Shown here piece by piece: positions 1,897 through 5,627 of a DNA stretch of 64,000 nt. Source of the stretch: a virus (taxonomy: Duplodnaviria > Heunggongvirae > Uroviricota > Caudoviricetes > Demerecviridae); the IMG/VR virus record IMGVR_UViG_651703040_000001; one strand, given 5' to 3'. The position numbers and the translations under genes are program-made. Numbering within the stretch: the stretch's first letter is position 1; each line of letters opens with the position of its first letter. The notes under the pieces were generated by a model. The model had not been told where the DNA came from, did no database searches, and was given only the letters and a program-made list of their open reading frames with translations.

Positions 1897-2091
1897 ATGA
1901 GCAATAAAATTGTTGTAACCAAAACTAGTACAATGGTTGATGTTTTTTACGTGCCCGATACGCCGGAAAACCGACAAGCGGTTGAGCGTGGCGAATATGA
2001 TAAAGTGATTTATGATCACGATGGTTATTATAAGTATTTGGTGGACTCATATGGGGAGGAGGAAAAGATCACGCATCGACTACCAGACTAA
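1897..2091 (+). CDS. hypothetical protein (64 aa)
   Basis: SD GGGAG upstream. A GC hairpin terminator follows at 2097-2125. Confidence 0.5.
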   Translation: MSNKIVVTKTSTMVDVFYVPDTPENRQAVERGEYDKVIYDHDGYYKYLVDSYGEEEKITHRLPD

Positions 2092-2096
2092 TAATC

Positions 2097-2128
2097 ACGG
2101 GGCGCAACTATCTGGAAGTGCCCCAATT
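2097..2128 (+). terminator. rho-independent terminator
   Basis: CGGGGCGCAACTATCTGGAAGTGCCCCAATTTT. Confidence 0.65.
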
Positions 2129-2347
2129 TTCAAATGATAATCATTCTCATTTGACCGCGCCCGCGATGGTTAGCCTGCTAATGATTCGGGTGTTACGTGT
2201 CGCCTTGTGTGATCGTTAGCGCGCTAACTAATTTTCAAGCCTCCTTCAATTTTGCCCTTGATTTAGTATCCCCACCAAAATTAAACGCGTTAGAATGCGT
2301 TTGAGAGCGTTTTAACGCTATATTAGAATTATTCACTGCGTAGGAAT

Positions 2348-2365
2348 ACTGTATATTTATACAGT
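2348..2365. repeat. perfect palindrome ACTGTATA-TT-TATACAGT
   Basis: Inverted repeat with 8-bp arms, read directly in the sequence. Confidence 0.8.
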
Positions 2366-2375
2366 AGGATAAGCT

Positions 2376-2455
2376 GTGGATAAGTCTGTTAATAACGCTT
2401 CAAAATGGCTAGGGTTTTGTCAAGTCAAATCGTGCTGTTGATAAGTCTGTGGATA
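2376..2455. promoter_or_regulatory. cluster of DnaA boxes
   Basis: TGTGGATAA (the reverse of TTATCCACA) at 2376-2384 and 2447-2455. A one-mismatch copy, TGTTGATAA, at 2436-2444. Confidence 0.7.
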
Positions 2456-2485
2456 ACTTAAATAACAGTGTTTCTCACTTCCGTT

Positions 2486-2640
2486 CTTAAATGCGAATCA
2501 TTATCATTTGCATTCCACTATCTAAATGAGAGTCATTCCACTTTTTAAATGAGATTGATTCTCATTTCACTTTCTAAATGCGAATTATTATCATTCTCAT
2601 TCCGCTTTTTAAATGAGAATGATTCTTATTATCATTCGTA
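2486..2640 (+). repeat. five imperfect direct repeats, core TAAATGMGA
   Basis: Core copies at 2488, 2524, 2546, 2575 and 2610. Flanking sequence (ATTATCATT, CATTCCACT) is also repeated. Confidence 0.75.
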
Positions 2641-2643
2641 TTT

Positions 2644-2667
2644 AGCGCAGGGCAATTGCCCTGCGCT
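2644..2667. repeat. 24-bp perfect palindrome AGCGCAGGGCAA/TTGCCCTGCGCT
   Basis: Reverse complement identical over 24 bp. Confidence 0.85.
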
Positions 2668-2713
2668 TTTGTGCAAAACCGACATTGCTCCACGGGTGTT
2701 ACGTGCGGGCGTG

Positions 2714-3408
2714 TATGTGCGAATCCGACAATTTTTGGTAGTGTGCAAATCCGACCCGAAAAATTTTTATAGTGTGCAAATCCGACAATGAATTTTCCCA
2801 AAAACTCCAGCAATCTCGAACTGCGTTCGAATCCTGTGGGGTATGTGCAAATCCGACACGAGTTTACTAGGAGACAGATTTATGGTTTCAGGAATATTTT
2901 TGTGACTTCGATGAGAGGGTGTGTGATTGTGTGGGTTTGGGGAGAAGTTGAGAGAGCGAGAGAAAATTAGGGGGGGAAGCTAGAGGGGCGCATGTTTGGT
3001 GCGGAGCACCTGATTTGTGGGGATTTTGGGGAAGAGTTGAGAAGATTTGGGTTAATTTGAGATTAGTGGAGATAAAGTAAAATTTTATTTGCTAAATGGG
3101 GCAAAATAGCTTGACAAGTGAAAATTTCTGTGGCTCTAAAAACTCAGGCAATCATGGGCCTTCGGCCCGAAATAATGCTGCCATTTTCAGGAGATTATAT
3201 GTTCATGAAAACTTAGGCAATTGTGCAAATCCGACCAGTTTTTAAACTTATGTCAGTGTGCAAATCCGACAATAATTTCTGAAAATGTGTTTTCAAAAAA
3301 TGTTGTCTAGAAATAACCGCCCTCCCCATAACCGCCCTGTATAGGAAAACCGGCCTAGGATATTTATGGTAGGTGAAAACTGCCCTAGAACATGTGCAAA
3401 TCCGATTT
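2714..3408 (+). repeat. seven copies of a 14-bp box GTGCAAATCCGACA
   Basis: Copies at 2717, 2743, 2775, 2846, 3223, 3258 and 3394, all in the same orientation. The 2717 and 3394 copies are variants. Confidence 0.8.
2890..3080 (+). repeat. polypurine (GA-rich) strand-asymmetric tract
   Basis: About 190 nt that are almost exclusively G/A/T on the plus strand. Internal GAGAAGTTGAGAGA and GAAGAGTTGAGAAG repeats. Confidence 0.6.
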
Positions 3409-3802
3409 AAAGTTTAGTGTAAACCCTAGAGTTAGTGTTCAACTATTCCTAGAAACTTAGGAGTCTAGAAGAAAGTGTTGTGCCATCCTAGCAGAAGAGC
3501 GGCAACAGGTGTATCATCTTGAACACAGATATTGCCTTTAAATATTTTTAGTTATTTAAAAGTAAATATACCCCCATTTCATAAGAGTTAGCCCCTCTAG
3601 GCGCGTGCGATTTGATACATCCTCCTAAGTCTCGGTGTGGAAGAACAATTGACGAGAACCTGTACCAGAACCGTCATCAAGTGTTTTCCTACGAGGAATG
3701 ATGTAAATCTACGGCCTAGAGGTAAAAACAAGTTGATGTTTTTAATCTATGAGATTATTATAACATACAGCTCAAATAATGTCAAGAATTTTTCGTTAAC
3801 GT

Positions 3803-4528: not shown

Positions 4529-5013
4529 ATATCATCCGCCTGTCCACTAGCTGTTGCTGCTAATCTTCTTTCACGTTTCAAGATACCATTAATAATATCT
4601 TTTGCATCAGATTTATTCTTGGCTGTTCTCTTTATTAGGTCAAATAAGACTCTAGGATTAGGAACCTCAAACTCTTCCTCTCCCAGACATATAGTATACT
4701 CTTTCAAATGTAATTGAGTATACTTAGTAAGTGGGAAAGATTCTAGTATTCCAGTACTATCAACAGGAATATGTTCTTTCATAGGAATCACCGCACATTT
4801 CTGTTCCTTCAAGAAATTCAGGAATCCAATAGTTTGTACATCTTCTGAGTCATAAGAGACTTTTCTAATAGCTTCAATAAGCGTAATAGCTTCAAAAGTT
4901 AATACAGTTAAATAACGTCGTACATTTGCACCATCAGTTATTTGTAGAAAGTAAACCGACGAGTCCTCCGTCGGTTCAAACAGTATATTAGCGAATTTAA
5001 ATGCTTCTTTCAT
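4525..5013 (-). CDS. hypothetical protein (162 aa)
   Basis: Translationally coupled ORF. Confidence 0.6.
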   Translation of the reverse strand: MKEAFKFANILFEPTEDSSVYFLQITDGANVRRYLTVLTFEAITLIEAIRKVSYDSEDVQTIGFLNFLKEQKCAVIPMKEHIPVDSTGILESFPLTKYTQLHLKEYTICLGEEEFEVPNPRVLFDLIKRTAKNKSDAKDIINGILKRERRLAATASGQADDI

Positions 5014-5627
5014 TAATTACCTCTCTTATCTTCATTAAGAGCAGCTCCCAACGCCTCCATAATAGCATCTTCTAAACTTCCATGTTTACTAGGATTATTA
5101 AAATGAATAGTACAAACAGAACTCCTAGAAACTCCAGCATCCGCAGGTGCTACGCTTCGCATATCAGATTCAAAAGCTTCTTGAGTATGTTTCAACTGTA
5201 CAGAAGGGCCGTAATCTTCCGCAAACTTATATGACTGCGTACTACTTACCACACCCCCACAAGGAACATTGTGCAAATCCGACATTAATTTTTTATCGGA
5301 GTTATTCAGCATTGAGATTGTCCCTGACTGCCACGGATCTCTAATAGTCACTGGAGTACTGGGGCGGTTCACCTCAGTCTTCACAAGTTTGTACCCTGCA
5401 TCGATTAGTACATTAATCAAGTTATCAGCCGGGATGCGGGCCGTGCCAAAAATCTTACGAGCATCTTCGAGCTTACCTTCAAGATCTTTACAGGCTCTAA
5501 GGTCAGTGTGTGCAAATGTTAGCTTCATAGATTTGAATTGTACAGTAGCAGTTAAATCTTTAAAGCTATAATCCCATGTGTTCAGTTCATGATCCGGTAC
5601 TACTTGAATAGGTTGTTGTGTAAACAT
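5013..5627 (-). CDS. hypothetical protein (204 aa)
   Basis: ORF in an operon with the two genes downstream. Contains one copy of the 14-bp GTGCAAATCCGACA box at 5272-5285. Confidence 0.6.
   Translation of the reverse strand: MFTQQPIQVVPDHELNTWDYSFKDLTATVQFKSMKLTFAHTDLRACKDLEGKLEDARKIFGTARIPADNLINVLIDAGYKLVKTEVNRPSTPVTIRDPWQSGTISMLNNSDKKLMSDLHNVPCGGVVSSTQSYKFAEDYGPSVQLKHTQEAFESDMRSVAPADAGVSRSSVCTIHFNNPSKHGSLEDAIMEALGAALNEDKRGN

What the first reader, a model, noticed from the sequence alone, without database searches (positions are those of the whole stretch)
2714..3408. A 14-bp box GTGCAAATCCGACA repeated seven times in one orientation, with an eighth copy inside a gene at 5272-5285
The box is not a DnaA box or a sigma70 element. 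The copies are spread over 700 bp with irregular spacing, all on the same strand. That pattern suggests an array of binding sites for a sequence-specific protein, for example a phage pre-early DNA-binding protein such as A2, or a host factor. One further copy is embedded in coding sequence 1.8 kb away.
Basis: seen in the sequence. Interest (0 to 1): 0.65.

Follow-up and report, generated by a model that had tools for sequence, protein, structure and literature searches.

The report
Known T5 "direct repeat D" boxes
The repeated 14-bp box is real, but it is the already catalogued "direct repeat D" at the end of the left terminal repeat of T5-like phages, where DNA injection pauses and the genome end is cut; its binding protein is still unknown.

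Summary
The window is Salmonella phage Spc35, a T5-like Tequintavirus (window position = record position − 6437). The box GTGCAAATCCGACA occurs nine times with at most 2 mismatches, all on the + strand, against 0.38 expected by chance. Five copies lie at 2671–2858, three at 3223–3407 and one at 5271 inside a gene.

It is not new. The T5 GenBank record AY587007 annotates the same boxes as "direct repeat D copies 1–12", and Davison's papers call them DRD. No function has been shown.

Comparison adds several points:
- The core GTGCAAATCCGA and its orientation persist in Klebsiella, Serratia, Pectobacterium and Vibrio T5-like phages whose surrounding DNA no longer aligns.
- The array always starts directly after the injection-stop palindromes.
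- The physical end of the terminal repeat (window 3136|3137) lies in the gap between the two clusters.
- The in-gene copy is conserved as DNA in a non-homologous gene and a different reading frame.
- Proteus phages keep only the first copy, in altered form.

The boxes are therefore binding sites for a sequence-specific protein, probably phage-encoded. I favour pre-early protein A2 acting to restart DNA transfer (0.38) over the small terminase subunit acting at a pac-like site (0.30). A gel-shift assay would decide.

The parts
2671..2684 (+). DRD copy 1 (GTGCAAAACCGACA, 1 mismatch). It starts 4 nt after the CCTGCGC nick motif and terminator hairpin.
   Evidence: Homologous to T5 'direct repeat D copy 1'.
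2717..2730 (+). DRD copy 2 (1 mismatch)
2743..2756 (+). DRD copy 3 (1 mismatch)
2774..2787 (+). DRD copy 4 (exact)
2845..2858 (+). DRD copy 5 (exact). It is the last copy inside the left terminal repeat; T5's copy 6 has decayed in Spc35.
3223..3236 (+). DRD copy 7 of T5 numbering (1 mismatch). It is the first copy outside the terminal repeat, 87 bp right of the repeat end.
3258..3271 (+). DRD copy 8 of T5 numbering (exact)
3394..3407 (+). DRD copy 9 of T5 numbering (2 mismatches, GTGCAAATCCGATT)
5271..5284 (+). DRD copy 10 (exact), inside the minus-strand gene SPC35_0018 (5013-5627), antisense to codons (A)TG TCG GAT TTG CAC.
   Evidence: The same DNA lies in a non-homologous Slocum gene in another reading frame.
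2644..2667 (+). GC hairpin with a T run (T5 'palindrome J', terminator of the rightward pre-early operon). It contains the nick motif CCTGCGC (2660-2666), which corresponds to T5 major nick 1 at 7.9 %. It marks the left edge of the array.
   Evidence: Nick consensus taken from PMC3517423.
3070..3142 (+). Terminus element. It holds TTGACA (3111-3116) and GTGGCTC|TAAAAAC, with the left terminal repeat ending at 3136|3137. It is the most conserved stretch of the region and lies in the gap between the two DRD clusters.
   Evidence: left and right repeats identical over 9573 bp; the only piece of the query that matched most Klebsiella phage rows shown; annotated ends in T5, BF23, KpGranit, Slocum and My1; identity 0.92.
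2890..3060 (+). G-rich purine tract with GATTTGGG-type repeats between cluster I and the terminus element. A tract of this composition is present in the Klebsiella, Serratia, Pectobacterium and Vibrio relatives.

Best explanation
The boxes are the 'direct repeat D' (DRD) elements of T5-like phages. They are co-oriented recognition sites for a phage-encoded sequence-specific DNA-binding protein.

My preferred reading is that the essential pre-early protein A2 binds them. First-step transfer stalls with the DnaA-box, LexA-box and Fur-like palindrome block at the cell envelope. The next DNA to emerge is DRD copy 1, followed by four more boxes within 190 bp (five more within 225 bp in T5), three more about 365 bp further on, and one about 1.9 kb beyond those. 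A2, made from the DNA already inside and associated with membrane-bound A1, would capture these boxes one after another as they enter. That would bias the DNA inwards, as a ratchet or a handle, and restart second-step transfer.

Shown: the boxes exist, they are under selection as DNA, and their position and polarity are conserved.

Inferred: that A2 is the binder, and that binding drives the restart.
For: Identity with the known element:
- The window is phage Spc35.
- T5 annotates the homologous boxes as direct repeat D copies 1-12.
- The Moscow T5 record places cluster I inside its 'injection stop signal' feature.

Selection on the DNA:
- The core GTGCAAATCCGA is kept in Sugarlandvirus, Serratia phage Slocum, Pectobacterium My1 and DU_PP_V, three metagenomic lineages and Vibrio phages. 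Most flanking DNA in these does not align.
- All 81 matches with at most 3 mismatches in nine phages lie on one strand.
- Copy 10 recurs in Slocum in a non-homologous gene and a different frame.

Link to the first-step boundary:
- In every lineage examined, the first box directly follows the palindrome or terminator block that ends the first-step DNA.
- In three Proteus-phage genomes this first position is the only copy retained, in altered form (GTGCGTAATCGAC).

A2 as the binder:
- A2 is essential, DNA-binding, required only for second-step transfer, and has no known site (bioRxiv 10.64898/2026.04.02.716235; 10.1101/866236).
- Its model has a helix-turn-helix whose putative recognition helix carries VRSKL, followed by a basic linker.
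- VRSKL and HYVR are invariant in 10 array-bearing sequences but read VRTKL and HVVF in the Proteus lineage, where the box is altered.
- The putative N-terminal helix-turn-helix of the small terminase varies freely among array-bearing lineages.
Against: - No binding data exist.
- Clusters I and II and copy 10 all lie beyond the 7.9 % shear point. They are outside the cytoplasm while A2 is being made, so the model needs DNA breathing at the channel.
- The genome end falls in the gap between the clusters in every lineage with annotated ends. The A2 model treats this as coincidence.
- The covariation rests on a single array-poor lineage. The small terminase also has 5 positions that differ only there, against 7 in A2.
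- The box is asymmetric, although A2 is reported to be a dimer.
- The tandem pair in gene D13 at 64.9 % of the genome has no role in this model and is absent from Sugarlandvirus.
- The structure search gave no significant match, with every E-value above 0.7.
Confidence: 0.38

Rival explanations
1. The boxes form a pac-like packaging site. The small terminase subunit (SPC35_0142, annotated 'SciB') binds them on both sides of the conserved terminus element. It presents that element to the large subunit, which makes the sequence-specific cut creating the right genome end, that is, the right boundary of the terminal repeat.
For: - The annotated end of the terminal repeat lies in the gap between the two clusters in T5, BF23 (PhageTerm), Spc35, KpGranit (PhageTerm), Slocum (PhageTerm) and My1. 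It always falls about 18-22 nt after a conserved TTGACA.
- The terminus element is the only piece of the query that matched most Klebsiella phage rows shown, and it is the most conserved block.
- Cluster II lies outside the repeat, so the full clusters-plus-cut arrangement exists wherever the repeat adjoins the left unique DNA, including replicating DNA.
- SPC35_0142 is a small terminase by PHROG 3802 (E = 6.5e-91) and Pfam T5_Terminase_small.
- From general knowledge, the P1 and SPP1 pac sites have repeats on both sides of the cut.
- Two of the four unique major nick motifs have boxes 4 bp and 369 bp to their right.
Against: - There are no boxes at the other cut, the left boundary of the repeat.
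- The nearest boxes are 86-364 bp from the cut, and the distance varies between lineages.
- Proteus phages keep the small terminase and a terminus-like element but have lost the array.
- The putative helix-turn-helix region of the small terminase is poorly conserved among phages that share an identical box.
- Copy 10, about 2 kb away on the side that is not packaged, has no role.
- The packaging direction of T5 is uncertain. PMC3517423 states that the left end is packed first, whereas injection polarity suggests the opposite.
Confidence: 0.3
2. The boxes bind a host protein conserved across gamma-proteobacteria. They would be part of a landing pad of host-factor sites on the first-step DNA that holds the DNA at the envelope and so contributes to the injection stop.
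For: - The 12-bp core is unchanged between phages of Escherichia, Salmonella, Klebsiella, Serratia, Pectobacterium and Vibrio, although their A2 and small terminase proteins are only about 43 % identical. This resembles the invariance of DnaA boxes.
- The array abuts DnaA boxes, a near-perfect LexA box and Fur-like palindromes.
Against: - Proteus phages keep the DnaA, LexA-like and Fur-like sites but not the array.
- The boxes lie beyond the shear point, so they are outside the cell during the pause.
- I could recall no Escherichia coli regulator with this asymmetric motif. This rests on memory, not on a database test.
- The best fit to the DnaA box is 6 of 9 positions, by direct inspection.
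Confidence: 0.12
3. The boxes act as RNA, for example as a repeated protein-binding motif in leftward transcripts. Alternatively they have no function and only record a history of local duplication.
For: - A perfect sigma-70 promoter on the minus strand (3785-3757) fires towards cluster II, with no predicted intrinsic terminator in between.
- Cluster II and copy 10 would both be transcribed in the same antisense direction.
Against: - The D13 pair lies in a plus-strand gene and would be transcribed in the opposite sense, whereas the DNA orientation is uniform.
- Cluster I lies beyond the repeat end and just downstream of the terminator of the convergent rightward operon.
- No Rfam family matched.
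- A duplication relic is contradicted by conservation of the core where the spacers have diverged completely.
Confidence: 0.07

Closest known systems
T5 'direct repeat D' (DRD) of Repeat Region 3, the injection-stop region (Wang et al. 2005 annotation of AY587007; Heusterspreute et al. 1987; Davison 2015 and 2020)
   Same: The sequence, order, orientation and positions are the same. T5 has six copies in the left terminal repeat, three just outside it, one in the ORF019 homologue and a pair in D13. Spc35 has the same layout minus copy 6.
   Different: Nothing essential differs; Spc35 is simply another member. No function has been assigned in the literature.
pac sites of phages P1 and SPP1 and cosB of lambda (small-terminase binding repeats next to the cut; from general knowledge)
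   Same: Short repeats lie in two groups on either side of a sequence-specific genome-end cut.
   Different: The groups here are 86-470 bp from the cut rather than within about 100 bp. The spacing is irregular. The second cut, at the left boundary of the repeat, has none. Binding by terminase is untested.
Plasmid centromere parC of R1 and plasmid iterons (from general knowledge)
   Same: Co-oriented direct repeats lie in two clusters flanking a core element. DnaA boxes and A+T-rich repeats are next door, as at iteron origins.
   Different: Spacing is irregular at 26-136 bp within clusters (as little as 14-15 bp in other phages), not about 11 or 22 bp. No adjacent initiator or partition gene was recognised. 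Electron microscopy placed T5 replication origins near the genome centre (Davison).
Polar chromosomal motifs read by translocases (KOPS for FtsK, Chi for RecBCD; from general knowledge)
   Same: The motif has strictly one orientation throughout the genome relative to the direction of DNA entry.
   Different: There are only about a dozen copies, concentrated at one locus, rather than a genome-wide skew. No translocase partner is known.

Membership tests
T5 direct repeat D (DRD) | Sequence matches the DRD consensus (T)GTGCAAATCCGACA | tested here: met
   The same pattern finds the 10 annotated DRD copies in the T5 stretch fetched (AY587007.1 8500-13500) and 9 copies in the window.
T5 direct repeat D (DRD) | Located at the right end of the left terminal repeat and running into unique DNA, downstream of the DnaA-box inverted repeats | tested here: met
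   The left repeat ends at window 3136. Copies lie on both sides of it, and the DnaA boxes are at 2375-2456.
T5 direct repeat D (DRD) | All copies on one strand, with outlying copies in the ORF019 homologue and in D13 | tested here: met
Terminase recognition site (pac or cosB type) | Repeats lie next to the site where the genome end is cut | tested here: met
   The annotated repeat end lies between the clusters in six phages from four lineages.
Terminase recognition site (pac or cosB type) | Bound by the small terminase subunit and required for cutting or packaging | not testable with these tools
   Needs gel-shift or footprinting assays and box mutants.
Terminase recognition site (pac or cosB type) | DNA-binding region of the small terminase conserved where the site is conserved | tested here: inconclusive
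   The putative N-terminal helix-turn-helix region varies among phages with identical boxes. A downstream GFRN block is conserved.
Iteron-type replication origin | Regularly spaced direct repeats with an adjacent initiator gene, at a mapped origin | tested here: not met
   Spacings are 46, 26, 31, 71, 378, 35 and 136 bp. Neighbouring genes have no recognisable function. T5 origins are reported near the genome centre.
DnaA box | Match to TTATCCACA (TGTGGATAA on the other strand) | tested here: not met
   TGTGCAAAT against TGTGGATAA gives 6 of 9 by inspection. True DnaA boxes lie 220-300 bp upstream.
Binding site of pre-early protein A2 | Specific binding by A2 | not testable with these tools
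   Only indirect support. The helix-turn-helix model and the recognition-helix change coincide with the box change in Proteus phages.

The most novel reading that the evidence does not exclude
The DRD boxes are the missing cis-acting partner of A2. They would form a polar array of docking sites just past the injection-stop point, letting the A1-A2 complex grip and ratchet the stalled genome into the cell. That would be a sequence-encoded 'restart' signal for phage DNA entry, a kind of element not described for any phage.
Probability: 0.3. Interest if true: 0.75.

Novelty: already known. Interest (0 to 1): 0.4.

Why it matters
How T5 stops and restarts DNA injection has been open since the 1960s. 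How phages with long terminal repeats cut their genome ends is also unresolved. A 2026 preprint still calls the way A2 assists the restart "as-yet-unknown".

The DRD boxes are the only conserved phage-specific repeat at the exact place where both events occur. The comparison made here narrows the candidate binders to two small proteins, A2 and the small terminase. That turns the question into a simple binding experiment plus one box-scrambling mutant.

The feature itself is not a discovery, because it has been annotated in T5 since 2005.

Tried and rejected
- **Coding repeat:** rejected. The copies start in different codon phases, and relatives show indels that are not multiples of three.
- **Known RNA family:** none found. 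Only sub-threshold matches appeared, over the terminator.
- **Nicking signal:** rejected as a general role. Nick motifs at 18.8 % and 32.0 % of the genome have no box nearby, and a dedicated nicking-endonuclease family exists next to the large terminase.
- **Shared motif at both repeat boundaries:** Spc35's left boundary looked about 19 of 28 similar to the right one, but this is not kept in T5 or BF23, so I dropped it.
- **Synonymous-site test on the in-gene copy:** not significant among close relatives (P about 0.1-0.6 per pair). The Slocum comparison was the informative one.
- **D13 tandem pair:** it encodes VQILQVQIRQ and is absent from Sugarlandvirus D13. It is lineage-specific and I could not interpret it.
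- **Protein identity of A2 against the small terminase:** both are 43 % identical between Spc35 and a Vibrio phage, so this was uninformative.
- **Sequence and fold searches:** the sequence searches with A2 and the small terminase and the fold search with the A2 model found no significant solved relative.
- **ATAGAATGGTG repeats of Proteus phage 2:** these looked like a replacement array but are not conserved in two related genomes.
- **Exact 14-mer scan of IMG/VR:** single hits were scattered in unrelated contigs, as chance predicts. Every multi-copy locus came from a contig of 96-122 kb, the size of T5-like genomes.
- **Davison 2015 and Rhoades 1984:** neither paper was available.

Full report
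**What the window is.** Bases 2400-3800 match Salmonella phage Spc35 (HQ406778, genus Tequintavirus) at 100 % identity, and 448 other phage records match at lower identity. Window position equals record position minus 6437. The record annotates a 9573-bp left terminal repeat, which therefore ends at window 3136. I confirmed that the left and right repeats of the record are identical over all 9573 bp. The finding thus sits on the junction between the left terminal repeat and the unique DNA. It lies in a non-coding stretch of about 1.7 kb (window about 2090-3800) between the rightward pre-early genes and the leftward early genes.

**The observation.** GTGCAAATCCGACA has ten matches with at most 2 mismatches, against 0.38 expected. 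Nine belong together, and all are on the + strand:
- Cluster I, inside the repeat: 2671, 2717, 2743, 2774, 2845.
- Cluster II, outside the repeat: 3223, 3258, 3394.
- In-gene copy: 5271, inside the minus-strand gene SPC35_0018.

Otherwise the description is correct. I assembled the whole Spc35 genome from four fetched pieces. Beyond the right-repeat copies of cluster I, it has only one more locus: a tandem pair at record 76811/76826 in the D13 exonuclease gene, again on the + strand.

**It is already known.** The T5 record AY587007 annotates "direct repeat D" copies 1-6 in the left repeat, 7-9 just beyond its end (10139), copy 10 in ORF019, and copies 11-12 in exo2/D13. The same pattern search recovers these positions. 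Davison's preprint lists "nine DRD repeats" among the main repeat classes of "Repeat Region 3". It says the region overruns the repeat by 270 bp and assigns the repeats no function. The Moscow T5 record includes cluster I in its "injection stop signal" feature and places a major nick just before copy 1. A 2026 PNAS paper and a 2026 preprint still describe the stop signal and the role of A2 as not understood. The exact 14-mer appears in no paper of the searchable library.

**Conservation.** Among nine Tequintavirus and Epseptimavirus genomes the whole region aligns. Mean pairwise identity is:
- 0.86 for box columns;
- 0.73 for the other columns;
- 0.92 for the 80 bp around the repeat end.

The decisive evidence comes from distant relatives, where BLASTN aligns almost nothing. 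Only a 73-bp piece equal to window 3070-3142 matched most Klebsiella phage rows shown. The box array nevertheless persists in the same place and orientation:

| Lineage | Copies (cluster I + II) |
|---|---|
| Klebsiella Sugarlandvirus | 5 + 4 |
| Serratia phage Slocum | 4 + 2, plus an in-gene copy |
| Pectobacterium My1 | 6 + 4 |
| Three metagenomic lineages (A2 53-63 % identical) | arrays present |
| Vibrio phages (A2 about 43 % identical) | about 11 |

All 81 matches with at most 3 mismatches in nine phages lie on one strand. The derived motif is (A)T-GTGC-R-A-A-T-CCGA-Y-A, followed by a T-rich patch about 6 bp downstream. Arrays are found in 505 phage records. In IMG/VR, multi-copy loci occur only in contigs of 96-122 kb.

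**The in-gene copy.** Among close relatives its codons (TCG GAT TTG CAC) are invariant, but no more than the general similarity predicts. In Slocum the same DNA (CATT-GTGCAAATCCGATG) lies about 2.1 kb from the repeat end. There it sits in a 101-residue gene with no detectable similarity to SPC35_0018 and is read in another frame (HRICTM instead of MSDLHN). This shows selection on the DNA, not on the protein. The copy is not universal: Sugarlandvirus, My1 and the Vibrio phage lack it within the DNA examined.

**Anatomy shared by all lineages, from left to right:**
1. A LexA-like box and paired DnaA boxes.
2. A block of Fur-box-like palindromes.
3. In most enteric lineages examined (not My1), a GC hairpin carrying the nick motif CCYGCGC.
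4. DRD cluster I, starting within a few bases of the preceding block.
5. A G-rich tract of about 150-250 bp.
6. The terminus element TTGACA-N18-22-|(T)AAAAAC.
7. A short hairpin.
8. DRD cluster II.
9. ATAACCGCCCT repeats.

The annotated repeat end lies at the same homologous point, between the clusters, in T5, BF23 (PhageTerm), Spc35, KpGranit (PhageTerm), Slocum (PhageTerm, 2 nt away) and My1. Other records place the end elsewhere. For Seabear it falls exactly on the nick motif 4 nt before copy 1. The ends given for chee24 and Kenya-K38 are also not homologous. Nothing here shows how precisely any of these ends was determined. There are no boxes at the left boundary of the repeat.

**A lineage with reduced boxes.** Three Proteus-phage genomes (Novosibvirus) keep the LexA-like box, the DnaA boxes, the palindrome block, the nick motif and a TTGACA element. 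They have only one box, at the copy-1 position, in altered form (GTGCGTAATCGAC). A different repeat seen in one of them is not conserved in the other two. This argues against a host protein, because the host-factor sites are retained. It singles out the copy next to the first-step boundary as the most persistent one.

**Candidate binders.** Two small phage proteins fit.
- **A2** (PHROG 1725 "DNA binding protein", Pfam Phage_T5_A2). It is essential and needed only for second-step transfer.
- **SPC35_0142**, annotated "SciB". It is the small terminase subunit (PHROG 3802, E = 6.5e-91; Pfam T5_Terminase_small).

Both are 43 % identical between Spc35 and a Vibrio phage. An AlphaFold model of an A2 homologue (mean pLDDT 83.6) has an N-terminal helical domain. 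Helix 41-50, a turn and helix 55-64 (…VRSKLTSAK) resemble a helix-turn-helix. A basic flexible linker (KSDKPRKVGGGSS) and a helical C-terminal domain follow. The Foldseek search of the PDB gave no significant hit. The top, non-significant partial matches include TetR, Myb-like and homeobox DNA-binding domains.

In an alignment of 10 array-bearing and 3 Proteus sequences, 7 A2 positions are invariant in the former and different in the latter. These include S→T in VRSKL and Y→V and R→F in HYVR. The small terminase has 5 such positions. Its putative N-terminal helix-turn-helix region differs freely among phages that share an identical box. With one array-poor lineage this is only suggestive.

**Weighing the two.**

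For terminase:
- The genome end lies in the gap between the clusters in every lineage with annotated ends.
- The layout resembles the P1 and SPP1 pac sites (general knowledge).
- Two of four unique major nick motifs have boxes just to their right: 4 bp at 7.7 % and 369 bp at 64.6 % in Spc35, and 368 bp in T5.

For A2:
- Cluster I abuts the stop-signal block more tightly (0-10 bp) than either cluster abuts the terminus (86-364 bp, variable).
- The copy-1 position is the one that survives in Proteus phages.
- Copy 10 lies further along the direction of entry.
- The recognition helix is conserved.
- A2 must act on this DNA yet has no known site.

I put A2 binding with a role in restarting transfer at 0.38, terminase recognition at 0.30, a host factor at 0.12, and RNA or no function at 0.07. 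The remainder covers another phage protein.

The direction of packaging matters for the terminase model, and it is uncertain. PMC3517423 states that the left end is packed first. Left-end-first injection would normally imply the opposite.

**Verdict.** The element is a known, annotated repeat family of T5-like phages whose function is still open.

Noticed in passing
window 2347-2366: A near-perfect LexA (SOS) box, TACTGTATATTTATACAGTA, with 1 mismatch to the 20-bp consensus, lies next to the DnaA boxes. Equivalent boxes occur at the same place in Klebsiella, Vibrio (two copies) and Proteus T5-like phages. Davison's preprint discusses only the DnaA boxes and mentions neither LexA nor Fur.
   Followed up: partly
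window 2130-2152 and 2487-2636: The A+T-rich palindromes of the injection-stop block (AAATGATAATCATTCTCATTT and similar; T5 'direct repeat C' and palindromes E-I) resemble Fur boxes, with 3-5 mismatches to GATAATGATAATCATTATC. Five of the ten distinct positions matching this loosely in the whole 64-kb window fall here. T5 uses the Fur-regulated receptor FhuA.
   Followed up: partly
window 2375-2383, 2436-2444, 2448-2456: DnaA boxes (TTATCCACA on the minus strand; the middle one has 1 mismatch). These are the boxes Davison proposes as the stop signal.
   Followed up: partly
window 3757-3785, minus strand: A perfect sigma-70 promoter (TTGACA, 17 nt, TGtTATAAT) directly follows the stop codon of the last early gene and fires leftwards into the non-coding region. 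A small ORF (3597-3731) follows it and no predicted terminator lies beyond. The promoter is conserved in Klebsiella phage Roth50.
   Followed up: partly
window 3313-3323 and 3328-3338: ATAACCGCCCT is repeated twice, with a third degenerate copy at about 3346. The motif recurs right of the repeat end in Klebsiella, Serratia and Pectobacterium relatives, and up to five times in phage GEC_vB_N7. It is another conserved cis element of unknown role.
   Followed up: no
window 3156-3168: The hairpin GGGCCTTCGGCCC lies 20 nt right of the repeat end. In Klebsiella phages a different sequence (CACGGTG…CACCGTG) forms a hairpin at the same place, and Slocum has a smaller candidate (CGGC…GCCG). The structure may therefore be conserved rather than the sequence.
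   Followed up: no
Spc35 record 76811-76839 (locus L022 6812-6840), outside the window: A tandem pair of boxes (T5 DRD copies 11 and 12) lies inside the D13 (SbcC-like) exonuclease gene and encodes VQILQVQIRQ. It sits 369 bp right of the nick motif that corresponds to T5 major nick 4 (64.7 %). It is present in Tequintavirus and Epseptimavirus but absent from the Sugarlandvirus homologue.
   Followed up: partly
window 2660, 4069, 15809, 31466 (record 9097, 10506, 22246, 37903): Plus-strand occurrences of the T5 nick consensus (CCYGCGC) fall at 7.7, 8.9, 18.8 and 32.0 % of the genome. Another outside the window falls at 64.6 %. These match the classical T5 major nick map (7.9, 18.5, 32.6 and 64.8 %). 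PhageTerm placed the repeat end of phage Seabear exactly on the first one.
   Followed up: partly
locus L023 (Proteus phage 2), about 1690-1830 of the reverse-complemented spacer: About nine tandem copies of AATAATAGAATGGTG-like units lie right of the terminus-like element. They are not conserved in two related Proteus-phage genomes.
   Followed up: yes
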